Shown: positions 3,963-47,430, counted from the first letter of the stretch. The stretch: 64,000 bases of DNA from an uncultured Bdellovibrionales bacterium (GCA_964551325.1 CAZKBU010000001.1:385184-449183); one strand, 5' to 3'. Program-made: numbers and translations. Notes: a model not told the origin generated them from the letters alone.

Positions 3963-4724
3963 ATGCCCCAATCGACCGTACCCTTCGAACTTTCCGCCCT
4001 GGCCGAGGCCCATAACTACAATGGATGGATCCGCGACCTGGTGATGCCTCACATTGGGCGGCGCATCCTTGAACTCGGGGCCGGGATCGGAAACATGAGC
4101 GCTCACCTTCCGGCCCGGGAACTCCTCGTGCTTTCCGAGGCCGACACCTCGCTCCTGAGAATGTTGAAAGAAACGGTGGAAGCCTCTTTTGGAATGGCCG
4201 CCGTGAACGACGGGCGAGTGCGCGTGGCCCCCCTCGACCTCGCACACCCAGTGAGCAGCCAACTTCAGGGATGCGACTTCGACACCGTGGTGAGCTTCAA
4301 TGTTTTTGAACACATCGCCGACGATGTGACCGCGATGAAAGAGGTTGTGGAATTGTTGCGAGCCTCGAAAGCTCCCGGCCCAAAACGAATCCTCACCTTC
4401 GTGCCCGCTCACCAGTGGGCCTTCGGCACTCTCGACGAAGTGTTCGGGCACCACCGCCGCTATTCGAAGAAATCGTTTCTTGAGGTTTTGCGGAAGGCCG
4501 GGGTGCGGCCGGAAAATGTGAAGTGCGCCCGCTATTTCAACGCAGTAAGCGTGCCGGGCTGGATCGTCACCACGAAAATTCTGCGACGCCGGAAATTTGA
4601 TCCGGTTCCTTTGAAAACCTTCAACGCGCTGGTGCCCGTGCTGCGCCCGGTAGACAACTTCCTGACCGAAAAATTAGGCCTTCCCCTGGGTCAAAGCCTG
4701 TTCGTCGTGGCCACGGTGGAATGA
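3963..4724 (+). CDS. Class I SAM-dependent methyltransferase.
   Basis: ILELGAGIGN glycine-rich motif I and a downstream acidic motif II-like segment. Length is 253 aa. Confidence 0.65.
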   Translation: MPQSTVPFELSALAEAHNYNGWIRDLVMPHIGRRILELGAGIGNMSAHLPARELLVLSEADTSLLRMLKETVEASFGMAAVNDGRVRVAPLDLAHPVSSQLQGCDFDTVVSFNVFEHIADDVTAMKEVVELLRASKAPGPKRILTFVPAHQWAFGTLDEVFGHHRRYSKKSFLEVLRKAGVRPENVKCARYFNAVSVPGWIVTTKILRRRKFDPVPLKTFNALVPVLRPVDNFLTEKLGLPLGQSLFVVATVE

Positions 4725-5950
4725 AAAATCCGCTGAATCTCGCTCTGATTCTTCTCTCTCTCGGCACGGTGCTGTTCGTTGCCCTCTTACGCCCCCACGG
4801 CTTTCAGTGGGACCTCTTGGTTTTCTATCGCGCGGGGCTTGCGTGGCGCAATGGCCTAAACCCTTACGACTTTCAACAGCTGATCACCGCAGGGCTTATC
4901 GATCGTCCCGCTGAATTTCTCACCTTCACTTATCTTCCCTTTCTGGCGGCGGTCTTTGCCCCACTTTCATTCGTATCCTTTTCCGTGGCGGCGGCGCTTT
5001 GGATCGCGATCAAAGGTCTGTTTTTCGCCCTCTTCTGGAAATCGGCTACGGTGTTTCATCGATTCGACCGATCATCGACCCTGGATCTTTGCGTGCTAGT
5101 GCTCGGTTTCAACTCCGCACTTTTCTCCGATCTACTTTCCGGAAACACTTCGATCATTCTCTGGGCGCTTCTCTGGTGGGCCATTCGGCTAATATGGAGC
5201 GAGAAATTCTGGACGAGTGCTTTCTTGATAGGGTGCGCAGCCACTGTGAAGCTGCAACCAATTCTGCTATTGGCACTTCTTATTTTTGTGCCGAAAAAGC
5301 CAAAGTGGGGACCCGCCATAGGTGGCGTCACGGCCTTCGTTTTGGTGATCATGGCAAACGCGCTGCTCTGGCCGGAAATGTTCCAGTTGTTCCTGCATGA
5401 AGTTCGGCAACGCGCGGCCCTCGAAAGAGGAATTTTAGCTCCTTCCCTTTTCGCACTCTGTTCCGACGCGTTTGACCAATGGAAAAACATCTCCGTAGTG
5501 CCAGAAGCTTGGAAACAACTCAGTGGATGGTTTCCCGTAGCTCTATATGCAGTTTTTTCGTTACCCATTGCGGGGCTCACAGTTCATCGCCTCCGCCGGT
5601 CTCAGACTTTGGAAACGTCTCCGCACTTGGGTGTGGCGTTAGTCCTCCTCGGTTGGATTTTGTTGGTTCCCCGCCTCAAGTCCTACGACTTCGTCCTTCT
5701 GCTTCCGGTGGCAGCCTGGGTTTTGAAAAATTCCGTTGGCACCGCCAGGCACCTTCTCGCTGCTTTGATTCTGATCCCGGTGCTGATCCCTATTGTGCAG
5801 GGACCCGTGGAGATTTTTTCGGTAGCCCAGCTCGGAGTGACCAAGAAACTTTTCTATCTCATCTATAGTTACCTCCCCTGGTTTGCCGCCCTTGGCCTTT
5901 GGTGGCAGCTCATTCGAGCGGAACGTGATTTCAATAAGTTACCCGGCTAG
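4721..5950 (+). CDS. Polytopic membrane protein, DUF2029/GT87-like putative polyprenyl-P-sugar dependent glycosyltransferase.
   Basis: 409 aa with about 10 TM helices and a topology reminiscent of GT87/DUF2029 mannosyltransferases. A 4-nt overlap with the upstream methyltransferase suggests an operon. Confidence 0.45.
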   Translation: MKNPLNLALILLSLGTVLFVALLRPHGFQWDLLVFYRAGLAWRNGLNPYDFQQLITAGLIDRPAEFLTFTYLPFLAAVFAPLSFVSFSVAAALWIAIKGLFFALFWKSATVFHRFDRSSTLDLCVLVLGFNSALFSDLLSGNTSIILWALLWWAIRLIWSEKFWTSAFLIGCAATVKLQPILLLALLIFVPKKPKWGPAIGGVTAFVLVIMANALLWPEMFQLFLHEVRQRAALERGILAPSLFALCSDAFDQWKNISVVPEAWKQLSGWFPVALYAVFSLPIAGLTVHRLRRSQTLETSPHLGVALVLLGWILLVPRLKSYDFVLLLPVAAWVLKNSVGTARHLLAALILIPVLIPIVQGPVEIFSVAQLGVTKKLFYLIYSYLPWFAALGLWWQLIRAERDFNKLPG

Positions 5951-6147
5951 CGCCTCACCCCTTCCCCCTCCCGAACGCTCAAGTCGGCCAGGTTTAACAG
6001 GAGCATTTGCCAAACCCCGTGCCACCGGCCGAGAGATCTACACTGGTCTTATATGCCTGAAATCACGCTGTTTTTTCGTGTGTCAGCCGGATCTACAGGG
6101 CCGAAGCGTAAAGATTTTCGACAGTAACAGTGTAAAGCAATTGAGTA

Positions 6148-6176
6148 TTTACAAGGGGTTCGCACCGCGTTAAAAC
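6148..6176 (+). promoter_or_regulatory. Candidate sigma70-type promoter (TTTACA-N17-TAAAAC) for the small peptide gene.
   Basis: Read directly from the sequence: TTTACA at 6148-6153, a 17-nt spacer and TAAAAC at 6171-6176. It lies about 77 nt upstream of the ATG at 6253. Confidence 0.3.
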
Positions 6177-6252
6177 TGGCCCCGCTGTTGCGATACCTCT
6201 TTGCAAACAAAGCGGTACGTAAGCAGCAAACAAAGTAAGAAGGACCCAACCC

Positions 6253-6381
6253 ATGAAGAAGATCATCACCGCTGTAATGGTACTCGCTGGAATCTGGTTC
6301 GCCGCTAACTACACCGTGAAGGTGGAAATCTCCGCTAACCAAGCGCAGGCAGATTGCGGAGAAGAAAACGGCTGCCGATAA
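6253..6381 (+). CDS. Small 42 aa peptide MKKIITAVMVLAGIWFAANYTVKVEISANQAQADCGEENGCR. It has an N-terminal hydrophobic (signal or TM-like) segment and a C-terminal C-x5-C motif.
   Basis: Hand-translated because it is below the ORF-track length cutoff. AAGGA Shine-Dalgarno sequence 8 nt upstream of the ATG. The stop lies 1 nt from the stop of the convergent cyclase gene. A paralogue exists at 45375..45500. Confidence 0.5.
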   Translation: MKKIITAVMVLAGIWFAANYTVKVEISANQAQADCGEENGCR

Positions 6382-6382
6382 G

Positions 6383-8434
6383 TTAGGCGGAAATTTTTCC
6401 GGTCTTTACTTGGCCGGATAGTTCGAAAAAGAAAAGGTCTCGGGTGCCCACATCGCGCACCGAGGCCTTTTCTCTTTTAAGAAGCTCAAATCTTCCCTTG
6501 GCCCCAAAGACGAGTTTCTCTTCCAGCACAAGCACAGATTTTGACTTCTCGCAGAGAGCCTTTTCACATTCCAAAATTCGCGCCACATCTTTAAACCCGG
6601 TTTCTCCCGGCGCATCTTCAAAATCCTCGAAGCGCTTTCCAGAAACGGTTTTATAGATGGGATGAATGCCGCCCGCTACGAGGGCTGCCCGAAAATGAAT
6701 GGGCGCGCCGGATTCCTTTTCAAATTCCACGCCCATCTTTTCCATCGCCTGGAGCGCATCGAGCGCCTTAGTCAACACCTGCGCCGACTCACCGGGGAAA
6801 AATCCAAAAAACGAATCACCGCCACTCGAAATGTGCTCACCGCCATGGGCCTTCATCACCCCGGTGGCCGCCTCACACCAGCGAGTGGGAAGTTTTGTGG
6901 CGAGGCCTTTTTCGGCGCTCACATCATAGAGCCTGCTCGAAGCTTTCAAATCCACATGAAGCAAAATTCCTTGGAACACGCGCTGCTCTTTAGCCATCGG
7001 ATCGTGAAAGCGGGAGCCCACCAAAGTTTCTTGCACGAAATCGAATTCGCGATAGTCGCGAAAGATAAAGGCGCCCAAGATGGCAACCAGCAAAAACTGC
7101 AGAGGCCGGTGATAAACTGCCTGCAATCCGATCAAACCATTTCCAAGGAGCCCAGTTTGAATCAAATACATTCCGAAAATAAACCCCAACACAACCCCAA
7201 ATTGCACCGTCCGCTTGGCTCGCAATTCCATCTTGCGGTCACCACCCCGACCCAATGCCAGGCGCTTTACAAATTCTGCTTGTGAAAAGCACGCCAGCGC
7301 ACCTACAAAATACATGAAAGGCACAAGCCACTTCGCTAACTGAGCGCTCAGGAAAAAGAAATCGCTCCCCTGTGTGGCCGATCGATAGGCCACCGTGAAG
7401 GCGATGAGCCCCACACCAAAGACCCAATAAACTGTATCTTTCCTCGCTCGGGCATAAGCAAGACCAAGAACCGCACCCAAAACTCCTTCTGAAAACCTGA
7501 GCCCGAGATCCGTGAGGTAGAAATCCGAAATCGACATCGTCCACTTCACCACGCCCCAATGCATGATCTGAATCGCGCACAAGCAAAGCGCAAACAAGCT
7601 AAACGCCAGATACTCCGCCCGATCGGGTACGCTCGCCCACAAAAACAAGAACACTGCGAAAACCACCAGACCCGTGATCCCAAAGGCCAAGGGCCGCGCA
7701 ATCGTGGTGGTCACCCACAAGTTTCTAAAATCCTTCGCACCCTGCTGAGAAAACACTCCAGTGGGATAGGGCGCACCCACCGCCAGCGGCCACGCGGATC
7801 CCAAAGTATGCGTAACCTCCACCGCCACGAGCACACCGCTCGCGCGAGCCCAGTCGGCAGGAGTCAAAGCAAAAGAAACAGGAAGGAAATCATTCCCGTC
7901 ACCAGAACGGCGAATGTCCCCGTTCACGTAAATCCGATAGGTCGCATTGATGTGACCCACCACCACGTCCCAGGCCTCGCCACCAAACGGTCCGCGCCAG
8001 CGCGATCCGTCGAGCCAATAGCCCGCCCAGAAGCGTGTGCCCTGGGCGGCACGGGCGCGCATTGTGAAATCCTTATCCGCCAACGAAGCCTTGGCCGTTC
8101 GCAGCGGCGAACTCACGGGTGAAGCGTAACAACTCGCGCCACCGCCACACTCCGGTCCGCCATCCCAAACCACCATCCAATCGGCGCGGGGGATCTCCAA
8201 AGCCGGCCGCGACGCGAATGCCTCTTCAAAAAACTTTTTGATCGGCGCGGTGAATCCGAGCGCGATCACCGCCACTAAAAAAAACAGCATGGCAAAATCC
8301 ACCATGCGGCCGCGGCGCACGTATTCCCGCCAGTCCACGCCCTTGGGCCGAGCCAATAGCTCACCGATTCGATAGAGGGGCTCGCGTACAAATCGAAAGA
8401 AATTCATGCCTCTTCTCATCGGAATTCCGAGCAT
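6383..8434 (-). CDS. 7TM-DISM receptor fused to a class III adenylate/guanylate cyclase domain.
   Basis: N-terminal TM helix, an extracellular domain of about 200 aa, a 7-TM block, then a C-terminal cyclase-like domain (HVD..., GGDSF, RAALVAGG). The ORF-track start at 8647 would overlap the nitroreductase gene, so a Met near 8434/8419/8407 is the more likely start. Confidence 0.7.
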   Translation of the reverse strand: MLGIPMRRGMNFFRFVREPLYRIGELLARPKGVDWREYVRRGRMVDFAMLFFLVAVIALGFTAPIKKFFEEAFASRPALEIPRADWMVVWDGGPECGGGASCYASPVSSPLRTAKASLADKDFTMRARAAQGTRFWAGYWLDGSRWRGPFGGEAWDVVVGHINATYRIYVNGDIRRSGDGNDFLPVSFALTPADWARASGVLVAVEVTHTLGSAWPLAVGAPYPTGVFSQQGAKDFRNLWVTTTIARPLAFGITGLVVFAVFLFLWASVPDRAEYLAFSLFALCLCAIQIMHWGVVKWTMSISDFYLTDLGLRFSEGVLGAVLGLAYARARKDTVYWVFGVGLIAFTVAYRSATQGSDFFFLSAQLAKWLVPFMYFVGALACFSQAEFVKRLALGRGGDRKMELRAKRTVQFGVVLGFIFGMYLIQTGLLGNGLIGLQAVYHRPLQFLLVAILGAFIFRDYREFDFVQETLVGSRFHDPMAKEQRVFQGILLHVDLKASSRLYDVSAEKGLATKLPTRWCEAATGVMKAHGGEHISSGGDSFFGFFPGESAQVLTKALDALQAMEKMGVEFEKESGAPIHFRAALVAGGIHPIYKTVSGKRFEDFEDAPGETGFKDVARILECEKALCEKSKSVLVLEEKLVFGAKGRFELLKREKASVRDVGTRDLFFFELSGQVKTGKISA

Positions 8435-8517: not shown

Positions 8518-9111
8518 ATGGCCGCCGACCAACGCTCGATTTACGACCTGATTCGCTCCCGTCGCAGCATCCGCAGCTACGTGCAGGGAAAGCCCATTCC
8601 CCCGGAAATGCTCGATCGCGTGCTCGAAGCGGGTCTCTGGGCCGCATCGGGTAAGAATCAGCAGAACTGGCGATTCTTTGTTCTCTCCGGCCGGAAGAGA
8701 GACGAATACCTCTCCCTCTCCCAGAAGAGCTGGCTCTCGATCAAAGACAATCTCGAAAAACGCCTCAAGCCGAGTCTCTACAAATTCACGGAGCGTTTCT
8801 TTTTCACCATGGGCGATGCACCGGTGGTGGTCATTGCGTTCGCCGATCTCAACGATCAGGACCATCCGCAAACCCAGATGGGGAATGTGTATCTCGCCGT
8901 GGACAACATGGTGCTCGCCGCTCAAAGCGAGGGCCTCGGGAGTTGCATTCTTGGAAGTCCGCTGGAGATCGAGAGCGACGTGCGCAAGTTCCTCGGCGTC
9001 ACCCAGCGGAACTGGAAGCTGATCTGCGGACTCACGGTCGGCTGGCCGAACCATGAGCCACCGACGCCTAGCCGACAGACAGAAGGCCGGATCATTCGCC
9101 TCGCGGACTAA
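8518..9111 (+). CDS. Nitroreductase family protein.
   Basis: RSIRSY motif, 197 aa, typical NfsB/NfnB-like fold signature. Confidence 0.8.
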   Translation: MAADQRSIYDLIRSRRSIRSYVQGKPIPPEMLDRVLEAGLWAASGKNQQNWRFFVLSGRKRDEYLSLSQKSWLSIKDNLEKRLKPSLYKFTERFFFTMGDAPVVVIAFADLNDQDHPQTQMGNVYLAVDNMVLAAQSEGLGSCILGSPLEIESDVRKFLGVTQRNWKLICGLTVGWPNHEPPTPSRQTEGRIIRLAD

Positions 9112-9219: not shown

Positions 9220-10020
9220 GTGCAACACTCAGAATCAATTCAGCCACGTTATGTGAAGTTCCTGGGCTACGCCCTGCTTAGCTTTCCGGGCACCTACATC
9301 CTCGTGCTTGCCACCTTCTACAACCTCAGCCTTTCGAAAATGGCTTGGATGTTTTTCACGTGGCCCTACATCGTGCATTCGCTTTTTGCTCTGGGAACCG
9401 GCCTAGCGCTGCTGCACATGAAACCATTTGCCTGGCATCTCTATGTGACCCACTCAGTGTTCGTGCTTTTCGAACAGGTTCATGTCGCCTACCGATATGC
9501 GGAGCGCCCGAACGTGGAGATTCCCGTGGCACTGGCCACTCTTACCACCCTGGGACTGCTTTGGTTTCTCCGGCGCGAACTGCGCGTGCCCTACTTCAGC
9601 CCGCGAATCGCCTGGTGGGAGAGCGATCCCCGCTACAAAATCAGCGTCCCCACCCAGATGACCAGCGCCGACCACCTCTACCAAGGCGAAATCATGGACG
9701 TGAGCGCCTCCGGCTGTTTCATCAAGGTGAAGGCATCGTTCAAGATCGATCAAACCCTGAACGTTAAATTTTCTCTCTTCGACCGTCAGTTTGCCTGTCA
9801 GGGCAAAGTGGTTTGGCGCACCGATGGCGGCGTGACCCATCCCAAGGGCATCGGCGTGAAGTTTATGGCCCTGGAAAAACCCGTGGAATCGGATCTGCGC
9901 GCCACCGTGAAGAAACTTCGAAACCTCTCGATGAAGTACCGAGAAATGCGCAAGGAAGAGAAAGCGTCCCAGATTGAGCGCAAGGTGGAAGCACTTCTCA
10001 ATGGCCGCAAGAGCGGTTGA
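9220..10020 (+). CDS. PilZ domain membrane protein (c-di-GMP binding predicted).
   Basis: Four N-terminal TM helices, then RRELR (RxxxR) and DVSASG (DxSxxG) PilZ motifs. Confidence 0.7.
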   Translation: MQHSESIQPRYVKFLGYALLSFPGTYILVLATFYNLSLSKMAWMFFTWPYIVHSLFALGTGLALLHMKPFAWHLYVTHSVFVLFEQVHVAYRYAERPNVEIPVALATLTTLGLLWFLRRELRVPYFSPRIAWWESDPRYKISVPTQMTSADHLYQGEIMDVSASGCFIKVKASFKIDQTLNVKFSLFDRQFACQGKVVWRTDGGVTHPKGIGVKFMALEKPVESDLRATVKKLRNLSMKYREMRKEEKASQIERKVEALLNGRKSG

Positions 10021-40038: not shown

Positions 40039-42399
40039 GCGAATGAATATAGCGAAATCCTAAAGAATTCCAAGAGGATTCACCTTTACTTGCCGTGGCC
40101 AGCACCAAAGTGTTACGAAGGAGTAGGTCGCGAAGAAACAGGATGTGCGACCCACTTCTCCTCCGGCGATGGGCTGGAGAAGAGAAGGACCCAGCGATGC
40201 GCTCCCCTTGTCTTGTGCGCCGCCAGTCTGAGTCAAACCGAGAAAAACACTGAAACCGCCCCCCGCATCCAGGGCCCAAAAAGGATCCATTTCGTGATCG
40301 ATAAAACAGCCATCGACAACAACGCCCTTCACTACTATCGCAAACTGAAGGAGGCCGGATTTGCTGCCTATTTCGTGGGCGGCAGCGTAAGAGACCTCCT
40401 CTTGGGTAAACAGCCCAAAGATTTCGACATCGCCACCAACGCAACTCCTCAGCAGATTCGCCGAGTTACTGGCGGAAGAATTATCGGACGCCGCTTTCGG
40501 CACGTGATGCTGGAGCGCGACGGCGGCCGTTATGAGATCGTGACATTTCGAGGCCCCGTGGTGGGAATTGAAGCCGACGAGCCCGAAGAGGTTCAAGCCA
40601 GCGAAGGCGAGGCGCCTCAACCGCAAGACGAAGGCGACCGTCGCCGCAAGTTCCCCGACTTGAATCAGTTTGGAACCGCTGAGCAAGATGCCTTGCGCCG
40701 TGATTTCACCGTCAATGCCCTTTTCTACGATCCCGATGCCGACGAGCTGGTGGACTACGTAGAGGGGAAAATCGACGTAGAACGTCGAGTCCTCCGCACG
40801 ATTGGCGAGCCTGCCGCGAGAATGGAAGAGGACCCGATCCGAATTCTTCGAGCCGTGCGCCATCGCGTGAAACTCGGTCTTCACTACGATCCGGCTCTGG
40901 AATCGGCCATGAAGGAAAAGGCGCCATGCCTGGAAAACACTTCAAAGGATCGCATCCGCGAAGAATTTCTGAAGGTGTGCAACGACCAATCCCTCGGCGC
41001 ATTTCTAACCGAATTGAGAACCGTGGGAATTCTCGCAAACGCCGCTCCGTGGTTTAAGGACCTAACCGACGAAGAATGGCATCAAGGTGAGCGCCTCTGG
41101 GACGCTTTCTCCGCCATGCCCCCAATCGGTGGCAGACCGAGCCCGGAAATGGGTGTGGCCCTTATTTTTGCGCCCCTTGTGAAATCACTCGTGCTCGATC
41201 CCTATCGGTCTACGATTAGTCCGGAAGATCGGAACCAATTCCCCGACATGAAATTCTTCCTGAGTGCTGAGTCGCTGCGCGATCATATGCTCCGCCAGCT
41301 GCGGATCTCGCGCGCTCAAACAGACCACATCGTGCGAACCCTGTTCTACTGGAGCCGCATGACGACTCTTTGGATCGAGAACGGCCCTCCGCGCCGCCTG
41401 ATCGGAAAACTATTTCACCATCCTCCGGCCGTATTGGCTGCGAAAATGGCCCGCCTTAGCCTCCACCTGGATGGTCGTGATGTGCCTCAGTGGATGAACG
41501 ATTTGGCCGACTATGTGTCGACTCAGCGCAGACAGCGCGATCAAGAACACGGCGACGAGCGCCGTCCCCCTCGACGAGACGACCGCCGAGACGACCGAAG
41601 AGATGATCGCGGCGAGCCCCGAAAATCCGCAGCTCCAGAAATCGAAGACTCTGACGCGGGCGAAGAAGTGGAAGAGCGACCCCAGGGCATGCGTTTGCCT
41701 CCTCCCACGGAACCTATGGTTTGGAATGGGCCGTTGCACGCGCCCGTGCTGCGCCCCACATTTCCGAGCGAAACCACCACGCGCTGGGCGCGCAAGGATC
41801 AAAGTATCCGGGCATTCCGTCCATCAGGAATTCCCAATCAACCCATCGACTACGCCACCCTGAAATCTCATCTGGTTTCGAACTACAAGCCGGAACTTGA
41901 AGTTGCGGGCGGAAATGAACCAAACGGTGACGGCGGACGCCGTCGCGACCGAAATGATCGCGGAGAAGGAGGTCGACGAGGTCGCGGACGTGATCGTGGC
42001 CGTAACCGTCATCACCGAGATCGCGACAGAGATCAGCGCGACTCCTCCGCGCCTGTCGCTCAGTCGGCCGAGGGCGGGAATGGACCTGCGGAGAGGCCCG
42101 ATCCCATCGACGAGGATTCTATTGGTAACACCCTTCGCCCGGGCGAAAGACATGCGGCCTTGGGTGCCAACGCGAACACCTTTCACGAAAGTCACGACGA
42201 CGACATTGACGACAACATCGGCAACCGAATCGATGCACCAATCCCGCGAGCCGGACATTTCACCTCCGGCGAACAGCCGGTGGTGATGACCCACCACATG
42301 ATCCAGCAGCGCCGTAGCGGCGGTGGCGGTGGCGGTGGAGGGAGCGGAGGCGGCGGCCGACGTCGCCGAAGAGGCGGAAGGAACCGTCGTCGCGACTAA
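40030..42399 (+). CDS. pcnB: Poly(A) polymerase I (PcnB-like nucleotidyltransferase) with a C-terminal Arg/Asp/Glu/Gly-rich low-complexity extension of about 400 aa.
   Basis: GGSVRD and DFD nucleotidyltransferase head motifs align with E. coli PcnB. The tail contains RRDD repeats and a G8-SG4 run followed by an Arg cluster. The start is uncertain: the ORF track begins at 39670, and the ATG at 40030 is proposed here. Confidence 0.7.
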   Translation: MGHANEYSEILKNSKRIHLYLPWPAPKCYEGVGREETGCATHFSSGDGLEKRRTQRCAPLVLCAASLSQTEKNTETAPRIQGPKRIHFVIDKTAIDNNALHYYRKLKEAGFAAYFVGGSVRDLLLGKQPKDFDIATNATPQQIRRVTGGRIIGRRFRHVMLERDGGRYEIVTFRGPVVGIEADEPEEVQASEGEAPQPQDEGDRRRKFPDLNQFGTAEQDALRRDFTVNALFYDPDADELVDYVEGKIDVERRVLRTIGEPAARMEEDPIRILRAVRHRVKLGLHYDPALESAMKEKAPCLENTSKDRIREEFLKVCNDQSLGAFLTELRTVGILANAAPWFKDLTDEEWHQGERLWDAFSAMPPIGGRPSPEMGVALIFAPLVKSLVLDPYRSTISPEDRNQFPDMKFFLSAESLRDHMLRQLRISRAQTDHIVRTLFYWSRMTTLWIENGPPRRLIGKLFHHPPAVLAAKMARLSLHLDGRDVPQWMNDLADYVSTQRRQRDQEHGDERRPPRRDDRRDDRRDDRGEPRKSAAPEIEDSDAGEEVEERPQGMRLPPPTEPMVWNGPLHAPVLRPTFPSETTTRWARKDQSIRAFRPSGIPNQPIDYATLKSHLVSNYKPELEVAGGNEPNGDGGRRRDRNDRGEGGRRGRGRDRGRNRHHRDRDRDQRDSSAPVAQSAEGGNGPAERPDPIDEDSIGNTLRPGERHAALGANANTFHESHDDDIDDNIGNRIDAPIPRAGHFTSGEQPVVMTHHMIQQRRSGGGGGGGGSGGGGRRRRRGGRNRRRD

Positions 42400-42402
42400 A
42401 TT

Positions 42403-43605
42403 ATGAACGCCCCGCTTTCCCGTCAGATCTTGATTCGTATTTCAGGCACTGATGCGCCGGGAATCACGGCAGCCATTACCAAAACTATCGACGATGCCGG
42501 CGCCAAGCTCCTCGACATCGAGCAGGCTGTAACCCACGGCTTACTAAGCCTCATGGTTTTGATTGAGGAAGGCTCGGTCACGGCCCCCGCCCTTGAAGCC
42601 ACCATCAGATCGAGACTCGAGCCTTTCAAGCTAGACACGCAAGTCTCCGTGCTGGAAGGCACCTGGGAAGTGGCGGATCCAGCTCAGCGTTTCGTTTGCA
42701 CCGTGCTCGCAGAAGAGATCCCGGCAAAATTCGTTTCCGACGTGAGCTCCTCCCTGGCGCAAGCCGGCACCAACATCGACAGCATTCGAAAACTTTCGTC
42801 GGGCGGCCTCTCCACTTTGGAGTTGGTTTGCAGCTCGCGCGCGCGCTTGAATCTTCCAGTAATGAAAGAACGCCTTCTTTCGATTTCTTCTCGTTATCCC
42901 GGCGTGGACTTGGCCGTTCAAAGAGAAAATCTCTACCGGCGCTCAAAGCGCGTTGTGGTTTTTGATATGGACTCCACCCTGATCCAGGGCGAGGTCATCG
43001 ATGAGCTGGCGGAGCTTCTTGGAAAAAAAGCGGAAGTTTCGACCCTCACTCGCAAGGCCATGGAGGGGGAAATGGATTTTCAGGAGTCCCTTATTCGCCG
43101 AGTGAGCCTCTTGAAGGGTCTTACTCGCGCGGACCTCGACAAGGTGTATGCAAAGATGAAGCTCAGCCCTGGGGCCGATGTGCTTATCAAGGTTTTGAAG
43201 CGCCTTGGTTTCCGAATCGGCATTATCAGCGGCGGATTCACTTATTTCGTGGATCGTCTTCGCCAGGACTTAGGAGTTCACTACAGCTACGCGAACGTGC
43301 TCGAATGGGATGGCGACGAGATCACCGGTCGAGTTACGGGCCTGATCGTAGACGCCAGAAGAAAAGCGGATCTCATGGAGCTTCTCGCTCAACAAGAGGG
43401 GGTGCTTCTCGACCAGGTGATTGCCGTGGGCGATGGAGCGAATGATCTGCAGATGCTCAAAAAGGCCGGCCTTGGAATCGCCTATAACGCGAAACCGATC
43501 ACAAAAACCATGGTCGGCACTTCGATTACCAAGAAACGCATGGACTCGATTCTCTATCTTTTGGGAATCACCGACGCCGACATCGCTGAAATGGGAATTC
43601 GCTGA
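42403..43605 (+). CDS. serB: Phosphoserine phosphatase SerB with an N-terminal ACT regulatory domain pair.
   Basis: HAD motif VVVFDMDSTLI and C-terminal GDGANDL. Confidence 0.85.
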   Translation: MNAPLSRQILIRISGTDAPGITAAITKTIDDAGAKLLDIEQAVTHGLLSLMVLIEEGSVTAPALEATIRSRLEPFKLDTQVSVLEGTWEVADPAQRFVCTVLAEEIPAKFVSDVSSSLAQAGTNIDSIRKLSSGGLSTLELVCSSRARLNLPVMKERLLSISSRYPGVDLAVQRENLYRRSKRVVVFDMDSTLIQGEVIDELAELLGKKAEVSTLTRKAMEGEMDFQESLIRRVSLLKGLTRADLDKVYAKMKLSPGADVLIKVLKRLGFRIGIISGGFTYFVDRLRQDLGVHYSYANVLEWDGDEITGRVTGLIVDARRKADLMELLAQQEGVLLDQVIAVGDGANDLQMLKKAGLGIAYNAKPITKTMVGTSITKKRMDSILYLLGITDADIAEMGIR

Positions 43606-43617
43606 GCGGCGATCGGC

Positions 43618-44547
43618 TCAGGACAAAGCCAGCATCCGGTCAATTGGAGCCAAAGCTTTTCGTCGAAGAGTCTCGTCGATGAAAATTTCTGGGCTCAGTG
43701 TTTCGAGCGCCTTCGCTACTTTTTCTAACGTATTCCTCTTCATGAACGGACACTCATTGCATGCACAATTTGCGTCGGGTGGCGCCGGGATATAGGTCTT
43801 CGCCGGATTCGTCTTTTGCATCTGATGCAAAATTCCAGGCTCGGTAACCACGATAAACTTTTGAGCCGAACTTCTCTGGCTGTACTGAAGGAGGGCGGTC
43901 GTGGAGCCGATGTAGTGGGCCAGACGCAAAACCGGCTCTTCGCATTCCGGGTGAGCGACCACTTCGGCGTCGGGATGCATCGTCATCAATTCAAGAAGCT
44001 TCCGCTCCGAAAACGTTTCATGAACAACACAGCTTCCTTCCCAAAGAACCATCTCACGCCCGGTTAGCTTCATCACCCAGCGCCCCAAGTTCTTGTCGGG
44101 AGCGAAAATAATTTTTCGATCAGCGGGAATACTTTGCACAATCTTCACTGCGTTGCTGCTGGTGCAAATGTAGTCGCTCTCCGCCTTCACCTCAGCGGAA
44201 CAGTTGATATAGCTCACCACCACATGATCCGGATGACGCTGCTTGAACTCACGAAACGCACCGGCGGGACAGCCGTCGGCCAGAGAGCAACTTGCTTCCA
44301 TGTCGGGAATCACCACCCTGCGGGAGGGGTTTAGTATCTTGGCGGTTTCTGCCATGAAATGGACACCCGCGAACACGATTACTTGGGCGGTCGTCTTGGC
44401 CGCCTGTTGCGATAACTGCAGGCTGTCGCCGATGAAATCAGCTACGTCCTGAATGTCGGGGTTTTGATAATAGTGCGCCAAGACAACGGCATTTCGCTCC
44501 CTCTTCAGGCGGGCGATTTTTTGAAAGAGGTCTTCTCCGGACTTCAT
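43618..44547 (-). CDS. nadA: Quinolinate synthase A.
   Basis: NadA signature (VLAHYYQ...VHFMAET) and three Cys ligands for the 4Fe-4S cluster. Confidence 0.9.
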
Positions 44548-45191: not shown

Positions 45192-45211
45192 GTATTGATT
45201 TGGATCAATAC
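45192..45211. promoter_or_regulatory. Perfect 20-bp palindrome GTATTGAT-TTGG-ATCAATAC matching the CRP/FNR-family box TTGAT-N4-ATCAA.
   Basis: Read from the sequence. It sits in the divergent region between the PIN gene and small peptide gene 2. Confidence 0.35.
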
Positions 45212-45374
45212 ATTTGGGCCCAACCATCTAAAATCACTGGTGAAAAAACGACACCCCTCCCCGCTGCGCGGCATAATTCTGGCATGGCTCGCAAAGGATA
45301 CATCTTTGATTTCAAATGGTTACGTACGGTCCAGACCTTGCGACATTAGCCCCTGAACCCATCACGGAGGTCCC

Positions 45375-45500
45375 ATGAAAAAGGTACTTACGGTTCTGGC
45401 CCTAGCACTCACGATCGGCACCGCCGCCTACGGACTGGCTCAGTCTGTGGACGCTGGCGCCGTGACGGCGCAGGCCTGCCAAGGTTCTACCTATTGTGAG
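45375..45500 (+). CDS. Small 41 aa peptide MKKVLTVLALALTIGTAAYGLAQSVDAGAVTAQACQGSTYCE. It has a signal-peptide-like N-terminus and a C-terminal C-x5-C motif.
   Basis: Hand-translated. GGAGG Shine-Dalgarno sequence 5 nt upstream of the ATG. Followed by an intrinsic terminator. Paralogue of the peptide at 6253..6381. Convergent with the second receptor cyclase gene. Confidence 0.5.
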
Positions 45501-45520
45501 TGAAGACTTTCATTAGGATT

Positions 45521-45554
45521 GAGGGGGGCCTCGAAAGGGGTCCCTCTTTTTTTT
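45521..45554 (+). terminator. Rho-independent terminator (GC-rich hairpin plus a T8 run) after small peptide gene 2.
   Basis: GAGGGGGGCCTCGAAAGGGGTCCCTC followed by TTTTTTTT. Confidence 0.5.
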
Positions 45555-47430
45555 ACGCCGCTCGAAGCACGGAGCGGGACAAACGCAAAATTCGCGCGCG
45601 GAATTTCTGGCCCTTCACCAAGTACGGAATGGGCTCTGAAACCGTCATCCCCGCGGGCACTTCCACGGACTCATCCACCAACACGGTCCCCGCCTCGGCA
45701 GCCGACTGCAAACGAGCCGCCCGATTGATCGGCTCCCCTAAGAAACTAAACTCTGCGCTCTTAAAGTGGCAGGTCACAGATCCGCTCGCTACGCCCACGC
45801 GGAATCGCAGACGCTCATCAAAGAGGGAAAGATCGGCAATCCGAGAGGCCGCATAGAGAGCGTCTTCCTCCTGACCCAACCCCCAGCGATAGACAGATCC
45901 ATCACCCGTATCGGAGATCTTTTCCCCGCCCAAGGAGGTCACGATGGGCTGCAAGGAATCTTTCAGAACCTGATTTAAGCGATCGCGCTCTTCCGCTTTG
46001 GCCACGGCCAATTGTTTGGTGTAGCCCACGGCATCCACCACCACGATCACCGCATCCGACTTCACCAGAGCGTGCTGGGCTCCAGACGCGGCCAGCCGAG
46101 CCACGTCGCCCGGAAGCATTTCTTTTGAACGCAAATACACGCCTTGCAGCCCACGGAAGTCCGCCACCATCAATGCGCCGAGGGCCGTGAAAATTCCCGC
46201 GTCGAGAAGTTCAGGATAGCGCACCACCAAGAACTGAAAGAACGCTCCCGCGTTGGCGGTTTTATGAAAGAACGCCACACCCAAACACAGCGCCAACACT
46301 CCCAATTGTGCCGCTCGGTGGCGCACACCAACCACGAATCCCAGGTGAATGGCTACGGCAGAAACCACCACCATTGCGGGAAGGAGCGCCACCCAGGGCA
46401 TCCAGCGATAGGAGGCTTGGAAAAGCGGAATCCACTTCGATTCGCCAGCAATCACGCCCGCTATCAAGGGCACTAAGAAAAGGAATGCGGACCATGCGGC
46501 CGCAAATCCCAATCCCCGTCGATTGAACCGCAGCATTTCCGCCACGAAAAGCGGCACCATTGCGGTGGCGAGCACTTCGAAGAAAAAGATCGCGCTGTTT
46601 CGGAACAGGTAATCTTCATAAAAGGGATTTAAGCGCCAGTATCCAAATGCGGAAAGCCCGCTCGCCAAGGTGTAGCCGGCGAACCATAGGTACTCCCGAC
46701 GAAGCGGCATGAACACGAAGAGCGCCGCAAAGATCAAAAACAGTGAGAGCTTGAAAGCCACCGGTAACAACGGTTTAGCAATAGTTTGAAACTGATAGTC
46801 ACGCTCTTGATTTAGAAGGATTCGTGAGCGGCCTACTTGTACGGGGTTGAAGTGCACTATTCCTCTATACGGACTCGCCGAACGTCCAACTTGAACGACG
46901 AGATCCAGCTCCCCGCCCCGACCCAAATGCAACGGCTGCAAACGATGAAGCGCAAAGGCCACTTCTCCCCCGGACCCCACGAGTTCCCCGTTGATCCATA
47001 CCGCATGGGGGCCCTTGATGCTTCCAAGAGAAAGCGACAAGTCCTCGCCGAGCAAATTTTCCGGCACGCGCACGCGAGTGCGGTACCAAATCTCATCGGG
47101 CAGATCTCGTGCCGCCAAAGGCTTCGGCACTTCCACGCGTGACGACTTTTCCCAGCCGCGGCCGACCGCTCGGCAAGGCAGCGCACGTCCGGCGACCGTG
47201 CAAGTTTCAGAGGCACCAGCGGAAAATTCCCACTCCCCCTCCAGGCGCAAGCCCGAGGGGTCCACGAATCGTGCCGGATCCACGTACCAACGTGCGGCGA
47301 AAATCGTAACTGCCACCAAACCCAAAGCGACCAGACCTAGCGCCACACGCGGCGCCAGACCCAATGGACGCGGACCATGACGACTCACGGTTTCAACAAC
47401 GGCAGCCAGTTTGCGAAGGGTCTTTCCCAT
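45553..47430 (-). CDS. 7TM-DISM receptor fused to a class III adenylate/guanylate cyclase (paralogue of 6383..8434).
   Basis: N-terminal TM helix, an extracellular domain, a 7-TM block, and a cyclase domain with DAVGYT and SDTGDGSVYRW motifs. Confidence 0.75.
   Translation of the reverse strand: MGKTLRKLAAVVETVSRHGPRPLGLAPRVALGLVALGLVAVTIFAARWYVDPARFVDPSGLRLEGEWEFSAGASETCTVAGRALPCRAVGRGWEKSSRVEVPKPLAARDLPDEIWYRTRVRVPENLLGEDLSLSLGSIKGPHAVWINGELVGSGGEVAFALHRLQPLHLGRGGELDLVVQVGRSASPYRGIVHFNPVQVGRSRILLNQERDYQFQTIAKPLLPVAFKLSLFLIFAALFVFMPLRREYLWFAGYTLASGLSAFGYWRLNPFYEDYLFRNSAIFFFEVLATAMVPLFVAEMLRFNRRGLGFAAAWSAFLFLVPLIAGVIAGESKWIPLFQASYRWMPWVALLPAMVVVSAVAIHLGFVVGVRHRAAQLGVLALCLGVAFFHKTANAGAFFQFLVVRYPELLDAGIFTALGALMVADFRGLQGVYLRSKEMLPGDVARLAASGAQHALVKSDAVIVVVDAVGYTKQLAVAKAEERDRLNQVLKDSLQPIVTSLGGEKISDTGDGSVYRWGLGQEEDALYAASRIADLSLFDERLRFRVGVASGSVTCHFKSAEFSFLGEPINRAARLQSAAEAGTVLVDESVEVPAGMTVSEPIPYLVKGQKFRARILRLSRSVLRAA

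What the first reader, a model, noticed from the sequence alone, without database searches (positions are those of the whole stretch)
6148..8434. Unannotated 42 aa Cys-loop peptide gene tail-to-tail with a 7TM-DISM receptor cyclase (locus 1)
A hand-found ORF at 6253..6381 encodes MKKIITAVMVLAGIWFAANYTVKVEISANQAQADCGEENGCR. It has a good Shine-Dalgarno sequence (AAGGA) and a plausible TTTACA-N17-TAAAAC promoter. Its stop lies 1 nt from the stop of a convergent 7TMR-DISM class III cyclase gene. The peptide has a signal or anchor-like hydrophobic N-terminus. Its C-terminal C-x5-C could form a disulfide-closed loop, as in secreted peptide signals. The same arrangement recurs at 45375..47430 with a paralogous peptide and a paralogous cyclase. 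Conserved pairing across paralogues argues for a functional peptide and receptor-cyclase module, in which the peptide would be the ligand or a modulator of cyclic nucleotide synthesis. I know of no described system of this kind, so this is inference.
Basis: partly seen in the sequence, partly recalled or inferred. Interest (0 to 1): 0.8.

Follow-up and report, generated by a model that had tools for sequence, protein, structure and literature searches.

The report
Cys-loop peptide paired with receptor cyclase
A real, conserved 42-residue exported peptide gene sits tail-to-tail with a seven-helix membrane receptor carrying a cyclase domain in predatory-type (Bdellovibrio-like) bacteria. The peptide's tiny disulfide loop varies between strains together with the receptor's outer face, which suggests an undescribed self-encoded peptide/receptor signalling pair.

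Summary
ORF 6253-6381 exists with a Shine-Dalgarno site, 1 nt from the stop of a convergent receptor gene, and the arrangement recurs at 45375-47430. The small ORF is a real gene. It is present next to every receptor homologue of at least 33% identity that could be examined (L003, L004, L005, L010, L011 plus strain variants). It has a coding signature: third-position bias, pN/pS 0.23-0.68 at near-saturated pS, and only in-frame indels. All copies share MKK, a hydrophobic helix, [A/V]-x-A, then C-x3-6-C.

Among strains the 33-residue leader and its promoter are almost invariant, while every locus-1 allele has a different tail. Receptor substitutions concentrate on the predicted periplasmic face of the 7TM bundle at both loci (p = 4e-11 and 1.5e-6).

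The receptor is an N-terminal TM helix, a galactose-binding-like beta-sandwich, a GPCR-like 7TM bundle and a class III cyclase-homology domain. It is DISM-like in architecture only. The locus-1 subfamily lacks the catalytic Asn.

Best reading: a Sec-exported, disulfide-looped cognate ligand or modulator of the neighbouring receptor. No equivalent system was found in the literature. Function remains inferred.

The parts
6253..6381 (+). Peptide gene 1 (42 aa): MKK, hydrophobic helix, spacer, AQA, D-C-GEENG-C-R
   Evidence: Orthologues and alleles. Coding signature.
6352..6378 (+). Variable tail (codons 34-42) holding the Cys pair. Six alleles have six different tails; both Cys are always kept.
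   Evidence: Variable positions: leader 2/33 against tail 5/9, Fisher p = 0.0026.
6110..6351 (+). Segment that is nearly invariant across seven haplotypes: upstream palindrome, promoter, 5' UTR, SD and leader codons. It is flanked on both sides by divergent sequence.
6131..6153 (.). Palindrome TGTAAA-N11-TTTACA. Candidate regulator or enhancer site.
   Evidence: Read; conserved. Function not tested.
6177..6191 (+). Sigma-54-type -24/-12 element TGGCCCCGCTGTTGC (GG-N10-GC), 61 nt before the ATG
   Evidence: Elements scoring >=9/12 occur in 5 of 7 independent loci, against P = 0.017 for a random 120-nt window.
6240..6244 (+). Shine-Dalgarno AAGGA
   Evidence: SD-like purine runs occur before the ATG in all homologues.
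6431..6480 (+). Terminator-like hairpin plus U-run for the peptide transcript, lying inside the 3' coding end of receptor 1. An A-run upstream makes it look bidirectional.
   Evidence: z = -4.65; dG -26.6. The stem is kept in L019, and in L003 with a different sequence.
6383..8419 (-). Receptor 1 (678 aa): N-terminal TM helix, periplasmic beta-sandwich (residues ~59-238; 7706-8245), 7TM bundle (~239-460; 7040-7705), divergent class III cyclase-homology domain (~482-667; 6419-6976)
7103..7186 (-). Receptor 1 hot spot: outer TM6 and predicted periplasmic loop 6-7 (residues 412-439). It differs in all three haplotypes.
7520..7555 (-). Receptor 1 hot spot: predicted periplasmic loop 2-3 (residues 289-300)
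45375..45503 (+). Peptide gene 2 (42 aa): MKKVLTVLALALTIGTAAYGLAQSVDAGAVTAQACQGSTYCE
   Evidence: Orthologues. Alleles. Coding test.
45327..45342 (+). Weak sigma-54-like element CGGTCCAGACCTTGCG. The GG and GC invariants are kept. It lies 33 nt before the ATG, positionally equivalent to the stronger L004 site.
   Evidence: It scores only 7/12, so it is tentative.
45366..45370 (+). Shine-Dalgarno GGAGG
45521..45555 (+). Intrinsic terminator (12-bp GC-rich stem plus T8) for the peptide 2 transcript, in the 49-nt spacer. Its T-run overlaps the receptor 2 stop codon.
45553..47430 (-). Receptor 2 (625 aa): same architecture, with a canonical class III cyclase core (2 metal Asp, Asn, Arg) but Ser/Ser at the substrate-specifying positions
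46591..46629 (-). Receptor 2 hot spot: periplasmic loop 2-3 and outer TM3 (residues 268-280)
46798..46851 (-). Receptor 2 hot spot: periplasmic juxtamembrane segment leading into TM1 (residues 194-211)

Best explanation
Each small gene encodes a Sec-exported mini-protein: an N-terminal MKK, a hydrophobic helix, a 5-15-residue spacer ending in [A/V]-x-A, and then a 4-9-residue loop closed by two cysteines. In the oxidising periplasm the two Cys form a disulfide.

The product acts on the periplasmic side of the receptor encoded tail-to-tail with it. That receptor has a periplasmic beta-sandwich, a GPCR-like 7TM bundle and a cytoplasmic class III cyclase-homology domain. The peptide serves as the receptor's cognate ligand or modulator and so sets the output of the cyclase domain.

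Specificity lies in the Cys loop and in the periplasmic loops of the 7TM bundle, which diversify together between strains. The peptide gene is a separate transcription unit. Most homologues have a sigma-54-type promoter and most have their own terminator-like hairpin, so signal and sensor are regulated independently while staying genetically linked.

I lean (about 55:45) towards cleavage after the [A/V]-x-A motif by signal peptidase I, which would release a free 6-16-residue disulfide loop. The alternative is a membrane-tethered, MgrB-like subunit.

Shown here: the gene is real and under purifying selection; the pairing is conserved; the motif is conserved; the pattern of allelic variation; the domain architecture and fold; the promoter and terminator motifs.

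Inferred: export, disulfide formation, processing, physical interaction, the effect on cyclase output, and the nucleotide made.
For: 1. Conservation of the pair. A convergent small ORF lies 0-50 nt from the receptor stop (overlapping it by 4 nt in L019) in L001/L002, L013, L019 and L020 (strain variants), and in L003, L004, L005, L010, L011, L015 and L022. Both deep paralogues in the window have it. L003 keeps the pair in an unrelated neighbourhood.

2. Translation. Codon-position differences are 0.38/0.25/0.61. pN/pS is 0.23-0.68 at pS 0.6-0.9. The reading frame is open in all copies, and tail indels are multiples of 3.

3. Shared motif. All copies have MKK, a 15-19-residue hydrophobic stretch and two Cys. 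[A/V]-x-A sits directly before the first Cys, or before D-C in two alleles, with a variable middle residue (AQA, VIA, AKA, AYA). This matches the -3/-1 rule of signal peptidase I.

4. Allelic pattern. Six locus-1 alleles share one leader (2/33 variable positions) but have six different tails (5/9 variable positions; p = 0.0026). Locus-2 alleles differ mainly inside the loop.

5. Localised divergence. Flanks are identical over kilobases. The divergent block starts at the leader/tail junction and spans the receptor at both loci.

6. Receptor substitutions cluster on the predicted periplasmic face of the 7TM bundle. Locus 1: 17/30 positions in periplasmic loops against 49/644 elsewhere (p = 4e-11), and against 5/38 in cytoplasmic loops (p = 2e-4). 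Locus 2: 14/76 against 16/549 (p = 1.5e-6). Positions that track the tail allele: 12/23 in the face against 2/26 of the others (p = 0.001). The cyclase domain is almost invariant (dN/dS about 0.01).

8. Independent transcription unit. A sigma-54-type element scores >=9/12 in 5 of 7 loci, and terminator hairpins follow the peptide stop in 6 of 8 loci.
Against: - No expression, export, processing, binding or activity data exist.
- The spacer between the hydrophobic core and [A/V]-x-A is 8-15 residues, long for a signal-peptidase I c-region. This favours a tethered form or a different cleavage site.
- The membrane topology was assigned from AF2 helices plus the positive-inside rule, not from a dedicated predictor. 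The receptor-1 model is only moderate (pLDDT 61).
- The covariation rests on three full haplotypes per locus and is confounded by linkage and recombination history. No window shows dN/dS above 1. Extracytoplasmic loops evolve fast in many membrane proteins anyway.
- At locus 1 the divergent block also covers the neighbouring nitroreductase gene, so it is not confined to the pair.
- Family-2 adjacency is inherited synteny (NadA, PIN-like gene, peptide, receptor).
- The near-identity of the leader even at synonymous sites reflects recent shared ancestry or recombination, not necessarily selection.
- Receptor 1 has Lys for the catalytic Asn, and both subfamilies lack the canonical substrate-specifying residues, so the output is unknown.
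- The most distant locus examined (L012, 24% identity) has no such peptide.
Confidence: 0.6

Rival explanations
1. Tethered accessory subunit, MgrB-like. The peptide is not cleaved. It stays in the inner membrane as an N-in/C-out bitopic mini-protein. Its helix packs against the receptor's TM bundle, and its disulfide loop reports periplasmic redox or another cue, tuning the receptor from within the same cell. This overlaps the best explanation, since the partner is the same. It differs in the mature form, and in being cell-autonomous rather than a diffusible signal.
For: - The hydrophobic stretch is 15-19 residues, which is TM-length. There are two N-terminal lysines and a periplasmic Cys pair, as in the 47-aa MgrB, whose C28 and C39 and TM region are essential and whose activity depends on periplasmic redox state (PMC8404706).
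- The juxtamembrane segment (xYGLAQxVxAxxVTAQA) is the best-conserved part of family-2 peptides at deep divergence. That is odd for a discarded signal-peptide c-region.
- The long distance from the hydrophobic core to [A/V]-x-A disfavours signal peptidase I.
Against: - The conservation pattern at [A/V]-x-A (small residues at -3 and -1, free at -2) is what a cleavage site predicts.
- Strain-level tail diversification has no obvious driver if the interaction is purely cell-autonomous.
- There is no Pfam MgrB hit or any other family hit.
- The peptide has a separate sigma-54 promoter and terminator rather than being co-expressed with the receptor.
Confidence: 0.27
2. RNA-level coupling. The conserved feature is the convergent, overlapping transcription itself. 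The small transcript's 3' end is antisense to the receptor's 3' coding end, or causes transcriptional interference. It controls receptor expression, and the peptide is secondary or has an unrelated function.
For: - The stops are 0-12 nt apart, or overlap, in most loci.
- In family-1 loci the peptide's terminator hairpin lies 45-91 nt inside the receptor coding sequence, and its stem is maintained with a different sequence in L003.
- The promoter, 5' UTR and leader are nearly identical at nucleotide level across haplotypes.
Against: - Clear protein-level selection: third-position bias, low pN/pS, invariant Cys codons through synonymous changes, and only in-frame indels.
- At locus 2 and in L005 the terminator lies in or next to the spacer, so the antisense overlap is minimal.
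- This does not explain why variation concentrates in the Cys loop and in the receptor's periplasmic face.
- There is no Rfam match.
Confidence: 0.07
3. Unrelated small exported or membrane peptide (for example a type I toxin-like membrane peptide, a bacteriocin-like peptide or a metal-binding peptide) that merely sits beside the receptor gene through conserved synteny.
For: - Family-2 loci are syntenic orthologues that also share NadA and a PIN-like gene, so adjacency there needs no functional link.
- Small hydrophobic peptides with convergent partners are typical of type I toxin-antitoxin loci (general knowledge).
Against: - Two paralogues that share only 16-24% identity both keep the same partner and orientation within one genome.
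- L003 keeps the pair with entirely different neighbours.
- The blind pattern scan finds such ORFs essentially only at receptor 3' ends.
- No maturase, transporter or immunity gene is conserved nearby.
- The peptide tail and the receptor face vary together.
Confidence: 0.05

Closest known systems
MgrB / PhoQ (small membrane protein regulator of a sensor kinase, enterobacteria)
   Same: A ~40-47-aa protein with N-terminal lysines, one TM-length hydrophobic helix and a short periplasmic tail. The tail's two conserved cysteines are essential and link activity to periplasmic redox state. It acts on a membrane sensor roughly ten times its size or more (PMC8404706).
   Different: The target here carries a class III cyclase-homology output domain, not a histidine kinase, and has a 7TM bundle plus a beta-sandwich sensor. 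The gene is physically paired, convergent, with its target, whereas mgrB is a PhoP-regulated gene elsewhere. There is no sequence or Pfam relationship. There is a possible cleavage site before the Cys loop. The loop is strain-variable.
agr-type peptide pheromone systems (AgrD/AgrB/AgrC pherotypes, Firmicutes)
   Same: A short precursor with a conserved leader and a variable cyclic core. A polytopic membrane receptor whose extracellular loops set specificity. A hypervariable block embedded in conserved flanks, giving allelic signal/receptor types (general knowledge; reviews listed).
   Different: The organisms here are Gram-negative (Bdellovibrionota). The leader is Sec-type rather than an AgrB-processed amphipathic leader. 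The predicted ring is a disulfide, not a thiolactone. No AgrB-like maturase is present. The output is a cyclase-homology domain, not a kinase. The genes are convergent with a separate sigma-54-type promoter, not an autoinduced operon. Cross-inhibition and secretion are untested.
Disulfide-loop peptide ligands of animal receptor guanylyl cyclases (ANP/NPR-A; guanylin, uroguanylin and E. coli STa/GC-C)
   Same: Small peptides closed by disulfide bonds act on the extracellular side of a membrane receptor whose cytoplasmic domain is a class III cyclase. The family-2 profile detects the NPR-A and GC-C cyclase domains (E = 4e-7 and 2e-4).
   Different: The animal receptors are single-pass, with a periplasmic-binding-protein-like ectodomain and a kinase-homology domain. 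Here the receptor has a beta-sandwich plus a 7TM bundle. The resemblance is functional analogy only, with no homology outside the catalytic domain.
7TMR-DISM receptors (for example RetS/LadS, NicD, RgsP) and bacterial membrane class III cyclases with orphan receptor domains (Rv1625c/Cya)
   Same: The architecture is an extracytoplasmic galactose-binding-like domain, seven TM helices and a cytoplasmic signalling domain. For the cyclases, the membrane domain is proposed to be a ligand receptor (PMC4821796, PMC12505454; PMC6107284).
   Different: The Pfam DISM models do not recognise this family; only 1 of 59 members has a weak hit. The papers returned by the searches concern small molecules such as lipids and pyruvate; no gene-encoded peptide ligand appeared. 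Rv1625c has 6 TM helices, not 7.
Plant S-locus SCR(SP11)/SRK self-incompatibility pair
   Same: A tightly linked, multi-allelic pair of a small Cys-containing secreted peptide and its membrane receptor, in which ligand and receptor surface co-diversify (the concept appears in the abstract of PMC13033167).
   Different: It is eukaryotic, with a kinase output and much larger Cys-rich peptides. The analogy is in population genetics only.

Membership tests
Class III nucleotidyl cyclase (cyclase-homology domain, Pfam PF00211) | Beta-alpha-beta-beta-alpha-beta catalytic fold | tested here: met
Class III nucleotidyl cyclase (cyclase-homology domain, Pfam PF00211) | Significant sequence match to the family model | tested here: inconclusive
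   Receptor 1 has no Pfam or NCBIfam hit at E < 1. Receptor 2 scores 21.4 bits against a cut-off of 21.9. However, 14 of 59 family members pass. The family-2 profile hits PDB cyclases at E = 6e-16. The family-1 profile reaches only E = 9e-4.
Class III nucleotidyl cyclase (cyclase-homology domain, Pfam PF00211) | Two metal-binding Asp residues | tested here: met
   They are invariant in both subfamilies: D490 and D535 in receptor 1, D466 and D510 in receptor 2.
Class III nucleotidyl cyclase (cyclase-homology domain, Pfam PF00211) | Transition-state Asn and Arg (N-x-x-x-R) | tested here: inconclusive
   Family 2 meets it (GEPINRAARL; N569 and R573 are invariant). Family 1 does not meet it for Asn: an invariant K610 sits at the Asn position, R614 is kept, and there is a 7-residue insertion.
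Class III nucleotidyl cyclase (cyclase-homology domain, Pfam PF00211) | Canonical substrate-specifying pair (Lys/Asp for ATP, Glu/Cys-type for GTP) | tested here: not met
   By alignment to the mycobacterial cyclase 5o5k, Ser occupies the Lys position, and an invariant Ser (S562 in receptor 2) is read at the Asp position across a 2-residue gap in the alignment. The positions of K296 and D365 in Rv1625c are from my own knowledge. The product nucleotide therefore cannot be predicted.
7TMR-DISM receptors (Pfam PF07695 7TM; PF07696 DISMED2) | Match to the 7TMR-DISM_7TM model | tested here: not met
   Neither window protein matches. Only 1 of 59 family members matches, at E = 1e-4.
7TMR-DISM receptors (Pfam PF07695 7TM; PF07696 DISMED2) | Seven TM helices following an extracytoplasmic domain, with a cytoplasmic output domain | tested here: met
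7TMR-DISM receptors (Pfam PF07695 7TM; PF07696 DISMED2) | DISMED2-type (galactose-binding-like) periplasmic domain | tested here: inconclusive
   There is no DISMED2 hit. There are weak hits to the related GH2_N and BetaGal galactose-binding jelly-roll domains (8 of 59 members), and to esterase and glucuronidase jelly-roll domains in PDB (E from 4e-5 to 5e-3).
MgrB family (small inhibitor of PhoQ) | Sequence membership (Pfam MgrB model) | tested here: not met
   The peptides have no Pfam or NCBIfam family at E < 1, apart from a chance-level ExtJ hit at E = 0.11.
MgrB family (small inhibitor of PhoQ) | Bitopic ~45-aa protein with N-terminal Lys residues and two functionally essential periplasmic Cys | not testable with these tools
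   The sequence features are present. The topology, the disulfide and whether the Cys are essential need experiments.
AgrD-type autoinducing peptide precursors | Adjacent AgrB-type maturase and a thiolactone-forming Cys near a C-terminal recognition tail | tested here: not met
   No conserved neighbour other than the receptor is shared between family-1 and family-2 loci. The peptides end 1 residue after the second Cys, or 11 residues after it in L003.
Bacterial lipoprotein (lipobox) | [LVI][ASTVI][GAS]-C directly after an uncharged hydrophobic region | tested here: not met
   Read from the sequences. Charged or polar residues (D, E, K, N, Q) lie between the hydrophobic core and the Cys. The window's locus-1 allele has D before the Cys. 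Only L003 (VIAC) fits the four-residue box.
RiPP precursor peptide | Conserved co-located modifying enzyme(s) and a non-Sec leader | tested here: not met
   No maturase-type gene is conserved across the loci. The leader looks like a Sec signal or anchor.
Pycsar / CBASS-type defence cyclase systems | A cyclase plus a cNMP-sensing effector gene | tested here: not met
   PADLOC gives only a weak partial PycC hit for receptor 1 (E = 1e-5 over 79 residues) and none for receptor 2 or the peptides. There is no effector gene, and the protein is a 7TM receptor with a periplasmic domain.

The most novel reading that the evidence does not exclude
These are polymorphic, self-encoded peptide-pheromone systems of Gram-negative predatory-type bacteria. 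A Sec-exported, signal-peptidase-released disulfide-loop peptide of 6-16 residues is read by a GPCR-like 7TM receptor fused directly to a class III cyclase domain. Strain-specific loop/receptor-face allele pairs ('pherotypes') would allow kin or density discrimination. Sigma-54-dependent peptide expression might close an autoinduction loop through the cyclic nucleotide produced. This would be a bacterial counterpart of peptide-hormone/receptor-cyclase signalling, and the first gene-encoded ligand for a bacterial membrane cyclase.
Probability: 0.3. Interest if true: 0.9.

Novelty: new variant of a known kind. Interest (0 to 1): 0.74.

Why it matters
What bacterial membrane-bound class III cyclases and DISM-like 7TM receptors actually sense is largely unknown. 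The papers found here concern lipid ligands for cyclase membrane domains (PMC4821796, PMC12505454), and none reports a gene-encoded peptide.

Peptide signalling in Gram-negative bacteria is rare, and a 2025 review of bacterial small membrane proteins never mentions the word cyclase. A gene-encoded partner lying next to the receptor makes the question directly testable. The candidate ligand sequence is known, natural allelic series exist for specificity tests, and two paralogous pairs in one genome provide built-in controls.

If the pairs are pherotype-like, they would also reveal a social or kin-recognition layer in Bdellovibrio-like organisms.

Tried and rejected
Searches that led nowhere:
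- Pfam, NCBIfam and PADLOC scans of the peptides returned nothing.
- BLASTP of peptide 1 against peptide 2 found no alignment. Homology rests on the shared motif and on intermediates.
- The search for related loci failed with the 59-sequence alignment because it was too diverse. With the 6-sequence alignment on genome contigs it confirmed no relatives. Subfamily alignments gave only 4 loci, one of them truncated.
- The third homologous-protein search, using the broad alignment, returned almost nothing new.
- The afdb50 fold library was not available.
- Rfam found no RNA family at either peptide locus.
The taxon is inferred from relatives named Bdellovibrionales or Bacteriovoracia.
- No sigma-54 activator was found among ten large window ORFs.

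Readings considered and rejected:
- Lipoprotein. Rejected because the lipobox is not met.
- RiPP precursor. Rejected because no maturase is conserved nearby.
- agr homologue. Rejected because there is no AgrB.
- Pycsar or another defence system. Rejected because there is no effector and the protein is a periplasmic-sensing 7TM receptor.
- Type I toxin, or a chance ORF. Rejected because of the coding signature and the conserved pairing.
It is present in the sequence but not called by the consensus scan. It is superseded by the conserved sigma-54-type element, although a weak sigma-70 promoter cannot be excluded.
- The palindrome at 45192-45211 as an enhancer of the peptide-2 promoter. This is left open, because it may instead be the operator of the divergent PIN-like/RHH gene.

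Not attempted: a fused receptor-peptide AF2 run. The tool returns no coordinates or PAE, so a docking pose could not have been read.

Full report
**1. The observation**

The sequence is as described.
- ORF 6253-6381 (+) encodes MKKIITAVMVLAGIWFAANYTVKVEISANQAQADCGEENGCR.
- AAGGA lies at 6240-6244, 8 nt before the ATG.
- The peptide stop (6379-6381) is 1 nt from the stop codon (6383-6385, minus strand) of a large convergent gene.
- A second pair lies at 45375-45503 (+) and 45553-47430 (-), separated by 49 nt.

This is not a chance ORF.
- Of 2,022 small ORFs in the window, 3 fit a loose pattern (basic N-terminus, hydrophobic stretch, C-x3-8-C near the end). Two of the 3 are these ORFs.
- The same blind scan of nine related loci found 11 hits among 2,061 ORFs. 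Eight of them are the convergent ORF 1-50 nt from the receptor stop.

**2. The small ORF is a conserved, translated gene**

Homologues of receptor 1 are rare in the word-indexed search: a 92% relative and a 37% relative. Both have a convergent small gene directly after the stop.
- The 92% relative: MKKIITAVMVLAGIWFAANYTVKVEISANQAQACADENMCK.
- The 37% relative (L003): MKKFFAFSLLGLGIFFAAVSLIKPKGEVIACQPDCLPPVKAEVVKG.

Homologues of receptor 2 behave the same way.
- A Bdellovibrionales MAG at 61% identity: an ORF not called in that record, ...VTAQACHGSSYCE.
- L005 at 38% identity: ...VTAQACPEGTSYCG.
- L010, a Bacteriovoracia MAG at about 32% identity: ...VTAKACNSGCE.
- L011 at about 33% identity: ...SAYACSGTSQCE.

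A distant homologue at 24% identity (L012) has no such ORF, and L009 is truncated.

The coding signature is clear across the family-2 set.
- Differences by codon position are 0.38, 0.25 and 0.61.
- pN/pS is 0.23-0.68 with pS 0.6-0.9.
- The frame is open in every copy, while the other two frames carry stops in all but one case.

All copies share MKK, a 15-19-residue hydrophobic stretch, a polar spacer and two Cys (C-x3 to C-x6). [A/V]-x-A sits directly before the first Cys: AQA, VIA, AKA or AYA. Two alleles insert a D between the motif and the Cys.

**3. A caveat on independence**

The family-2 loci are syntenic orthologues: NadA, a PIN-like gene, the peptide, then the receptor. Their adjacency is therefore inherited. 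What they add is preservation of the ORF at saturating divergence.

Independent support for the pair as a unit comes from two observations.
- Both deep paralogues in the window keep the same partner and orientation. They share 24% identity over 137 aa pairwise and 16-20% over the full alignment.
- L003 shares no neighbour with window locus 1.

**4. What the large protein is**

Receptor 1 has no Pfam or NCBIfam hit. Receptor 2 has a sub-threshold cyclase hit plus weak galactose-binding-domain hits.

An exhaustive profile search shows a full-length family: 92 cluster representatives at E <= 1e-30. Of 59 sampled members:
- 14 hit Guanylate_cyc;
- 8 hit GH2_N, a galactose-binding-like jelly roll;
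- only 1 hits 7TMR-DISM_7TM, weakly.

The AF2 models (pLDDT 61 and 75) show an N-terminal TM helix, a beta-sandwich, seven helices and an alpha/beta domain.

The family-2 profile matches solved cyclases at E = 6e-16. It keeps both metal Asp residues and the Asn/Arg pair, but has Ser at both substrate-specifying positions.

Family 1 keeps the Asp pair and the Arg. It has an invariant Lys at the Asn position, a 7-residue insertion, and only a weak PDB match.

So 'class III cyclase-homology receptor' is right. '7TMR-DISM' holds only as an architectural resemblance. The nucleotide product is unknown, and for locus 1 so is catalytic competence.

**5. Allelic variation, the most informative result**

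Exact-sequence look-up found six alleles of the locus-1 peptide.
- The 33-residue leader is invariant except for two substitutions in one allele.
- All six tails differ: DCGEENGCR, CADENMCK, DCGEENTCN, CAEENGCR, CDENFCK, CAEENGCN.
- Both Cys and an acidic (D/E)-E-N core are always kept.
- Variable positions are 2/33 in the leader against 5/9 in the tail (p = 0.0026).

Locus-2 alleles differ mainly inside the loop: CQGSTYCE, CQGSLACE, CHGSSYCE.

At nucleotide level:
- About 6110-6350 (palindrome, promoter, 5' UTR, leader) is nearly identical in seven haplotypes, even where the upstream GT87 region is 30-60% divergent.
- Divergence begins at the leader/tail junction and runs through the receptor gene. 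For the window against L001, dS is about 0.7, while flanks kilobases long show zero differences.
- The tail changes by substitutions and 3-nt indels.

Locus 2 repeats this. There are no differences across 40300-42800 and only a handful up to 45100, a divergent block at about 45200-47300, and again almost none after 47300.

**6. Where the receptors vary**

Receptor 1, among three haplotypes:
- 17/30 positions in the predicted periplasmic loops of the 7TM bundle vary, against 49/644 elsewhere (p = 4e-11) and 5/38 in cytoplasmic loops (p = 2e-4).
- The TM6/loop 6-7 segment differs in all three haplotypes, and each has a different peptide tail.
- The cyclase domain has dN/dS of about 0.01.

Receptor 2:
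- With segments defined from the AF2 model, 14/76 periplasmic-face positions differ between W2 and L015, against 16/549 elsewhere (p = 1.5e-6).
- A third haplotype (L022) carries the L015 tail. It shares L015's states at the two hot spots (194-211 and 268-280) while differing at more than 20 other positions.
- Positions tracking the tail allele are 12/23 in the face, against 2/26 for the other variable positions (p = 0.001).

Limits:
- There are three haplotypes per locus.
- The result is confounded by linkage.
- The topology is not from a dedicated predictor.
- Loops often evolve fast.
- No window has dN/dS above 1.
- At locus 1 the divergent block also covers the nitroreductase gene.

**7. 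Transcription signals**

Abutting them is TGGCCCCGCTGTTGC (6177-6191), a sigma-54-type GG-N10-GC element.
- Elements scoring >=9/12 lie 31-61 nt before the ATG in W1, L003, L004, L010 (TGGCACCGAGGTTGC) and L011.
- The chance of such a score in a random 120-nt window is 0.017.
- W2 and L005 are weaker.

Terminator-like hairpins follow the peptide stop in 6 of 8 loci.
- At locus 2 the hairpin is in the spacer (45521-45548 plus a T-run).
- In family 1 it lies inside the receptor's 3' coding end (6431-6472), and the stem is maintained with a different sequence in L003.

The peptide gene is thus its own, probably tightly regulated, transcription unit. In family 1 its transcript overlaps the receptor's 3' end in antisense.

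**8. Mechanism**

The best-supported reading is a Sec-exported mini-protein whose Cys pair is oxidised in the periplasm. It acts on the periplasmic side of its neighbouring receptor as a cognate ligand or modulator of the cyclase-homology output. Specificity would lie in the loop and in the receptor's outer face (confidence about 0.6 for the partner-level claim).

- The [A/V]-x-A pattern (small residues at -3 and -1, free at -2) favours release of a 6-16-residue loop by signal peptidase I.
- The long spacer and the conserved juxtamembrane segment favour an uncleaved, MgrB-like tethered form. I rate this about 55:45 in favour of release.
- RNA-level coupling alone, or an unrelated peptide, are poor fits to the coding signature, to the paralogue and L003 evidence, and to the variation pattern.

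**9. Comparison with known systems, and novelty**

The system works like one of the following.
- MgrB/PhoQ: a small Cys-pair membrane protein acting on a sensor (PMC8404706).
- agr pherotypes: a conserved leader, a variable cyclic core and covarying receptor loops.
- By analogy, disulfide-loop peptide hormones acting on receptor guanylyl cyclases.

It is a member of none of these. There is no MgrB or Agr family hit, no AgrB, no lipobox, no RiPP maturase and no defence effector (neighbourhoods).

Searches of 8 million papers found no peptide gene paired with a bacterial receptor cyclase. A 2025 review of small membrane proteins never mentions cyclases. The papers found on bacterial membrane cyclases concern orphan membrane domains or lipid ligands.

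I classify the finding as a new variant of a known kind (a peptide/small-protein plus membrane-sensor module) with a new output and a new lineage. Interest is 0.74. The pherotype-pheromone reading (probability about 0.3) would rate about 0.9.

Noticed in passing
window 47465-47861 (-): A bacterial RNase P RNA (RF00010, 300 bits) ends 35 nt upstream of the receptor-2 start codon on the same strand. Receptor 2 may therefore be read through from, or share signals with, rnpB.
   Followed up: no
window 6425-6483, both strands: The terminator hairpin of peptide 1 has an A-run before it and a T-run after it, so it also looks like a terminator on the minus strand. That would place it about 45 nt before the receptor-1 stop codon. 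Receptor transcripts might end prematurely there unless ribosomes suppress the hairpin. The stem is conserved in L019 and L003.
   Followed up: partly
window 4721-6110 (GT87-family glycosyltransferase gene and its 3' flank): This region is 30-60% divergent per 100 nt between the window and haplotype L013, although sequence further out is identical. It looks like a second hypervariable cassette, perhaps a surface glycan gene, on the other side of the conserved peptide leader.
   Followed up: no
window 8518-9111 (+) nitroreductase; 9220-10020 (+) PilZ-domain protein: The locus-1 divergent block extends over the nitroreductase gene and stops at about 9250. A PilZ (c-di-GMP-binding type) protein gene follows, so another second-messenger component sits next to the receptor.
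   Followed up: no
window 45192-45211; L004; L003 ~7190-7212; L011; L010: W2 and L004 share a GTATTGAT-N4-ATCAATAC palindrome about 183 nt before the peptide ATG. It could be the operator of the divergent PIN-like/RHH gene. L003, L011 and L010 share a CCTGTCTCC-N4-GGAGACAGG-type palindrome 50-60 nt upstream of the sigma-54-like element, although they belong to different subfamilies and contexts. What binds these sites is unknown.
   Followed up: partly
window 44561-45124 (-) and 43618-44547 (-): A 187-aa protein with an RHH-like N-terminus (..ITANLPE..) and a PIN-like C-terminus, followed by NadA, is syntenic with the peptide-2/receptor-2 pair in L004, L005, L010 and L011. In L005 it is split into two genes, like a VapBC-type pair.
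   Followed up: partly
window 48300-49000: A further localised divergent block (5-15 differences per 100 nt) between the window and L015, within otherwise identical sequence. It covers a 164-aa ORF and the start of a short-chain dehydrogenase gene.
   Followed up: no
receptor 1 residues ~88-97 (window ~8129-8158) and receptor 2 residues 76-85: Both receptor subfamilies have a conserved Cys pair near the start of the periplasmic beta-sandwich: G-P-x-C-x5-C in family 1 and C-x4-8-C in family 2. In receptor 1 the residues between and around these Cys are among the strain-variable positions (92, 95, 96, 98). A mixed-disulfide or redox interplay with the peptide's Cys pair is conceivable but untested.
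   Followed up: no
samples SRR30613409 and SRR13867569 (L001/L006; L002/L015): Alleles at the two loci appear to assort independently. One sample has the receptor-1 allele-2 haplotype together with a window-identical receptor 2. Another has allele 2 at both loci. This is only meaningful if each sample holds one dominant strain.
   Followed up: no
window 59293-59367, 59395-59468, 62165-62238 (-): Three tRNA genes. An RpoD-type sigma-70 gene lies at 62267-63970 (-). These are ordinary housekeeping context.
   Followed up: no
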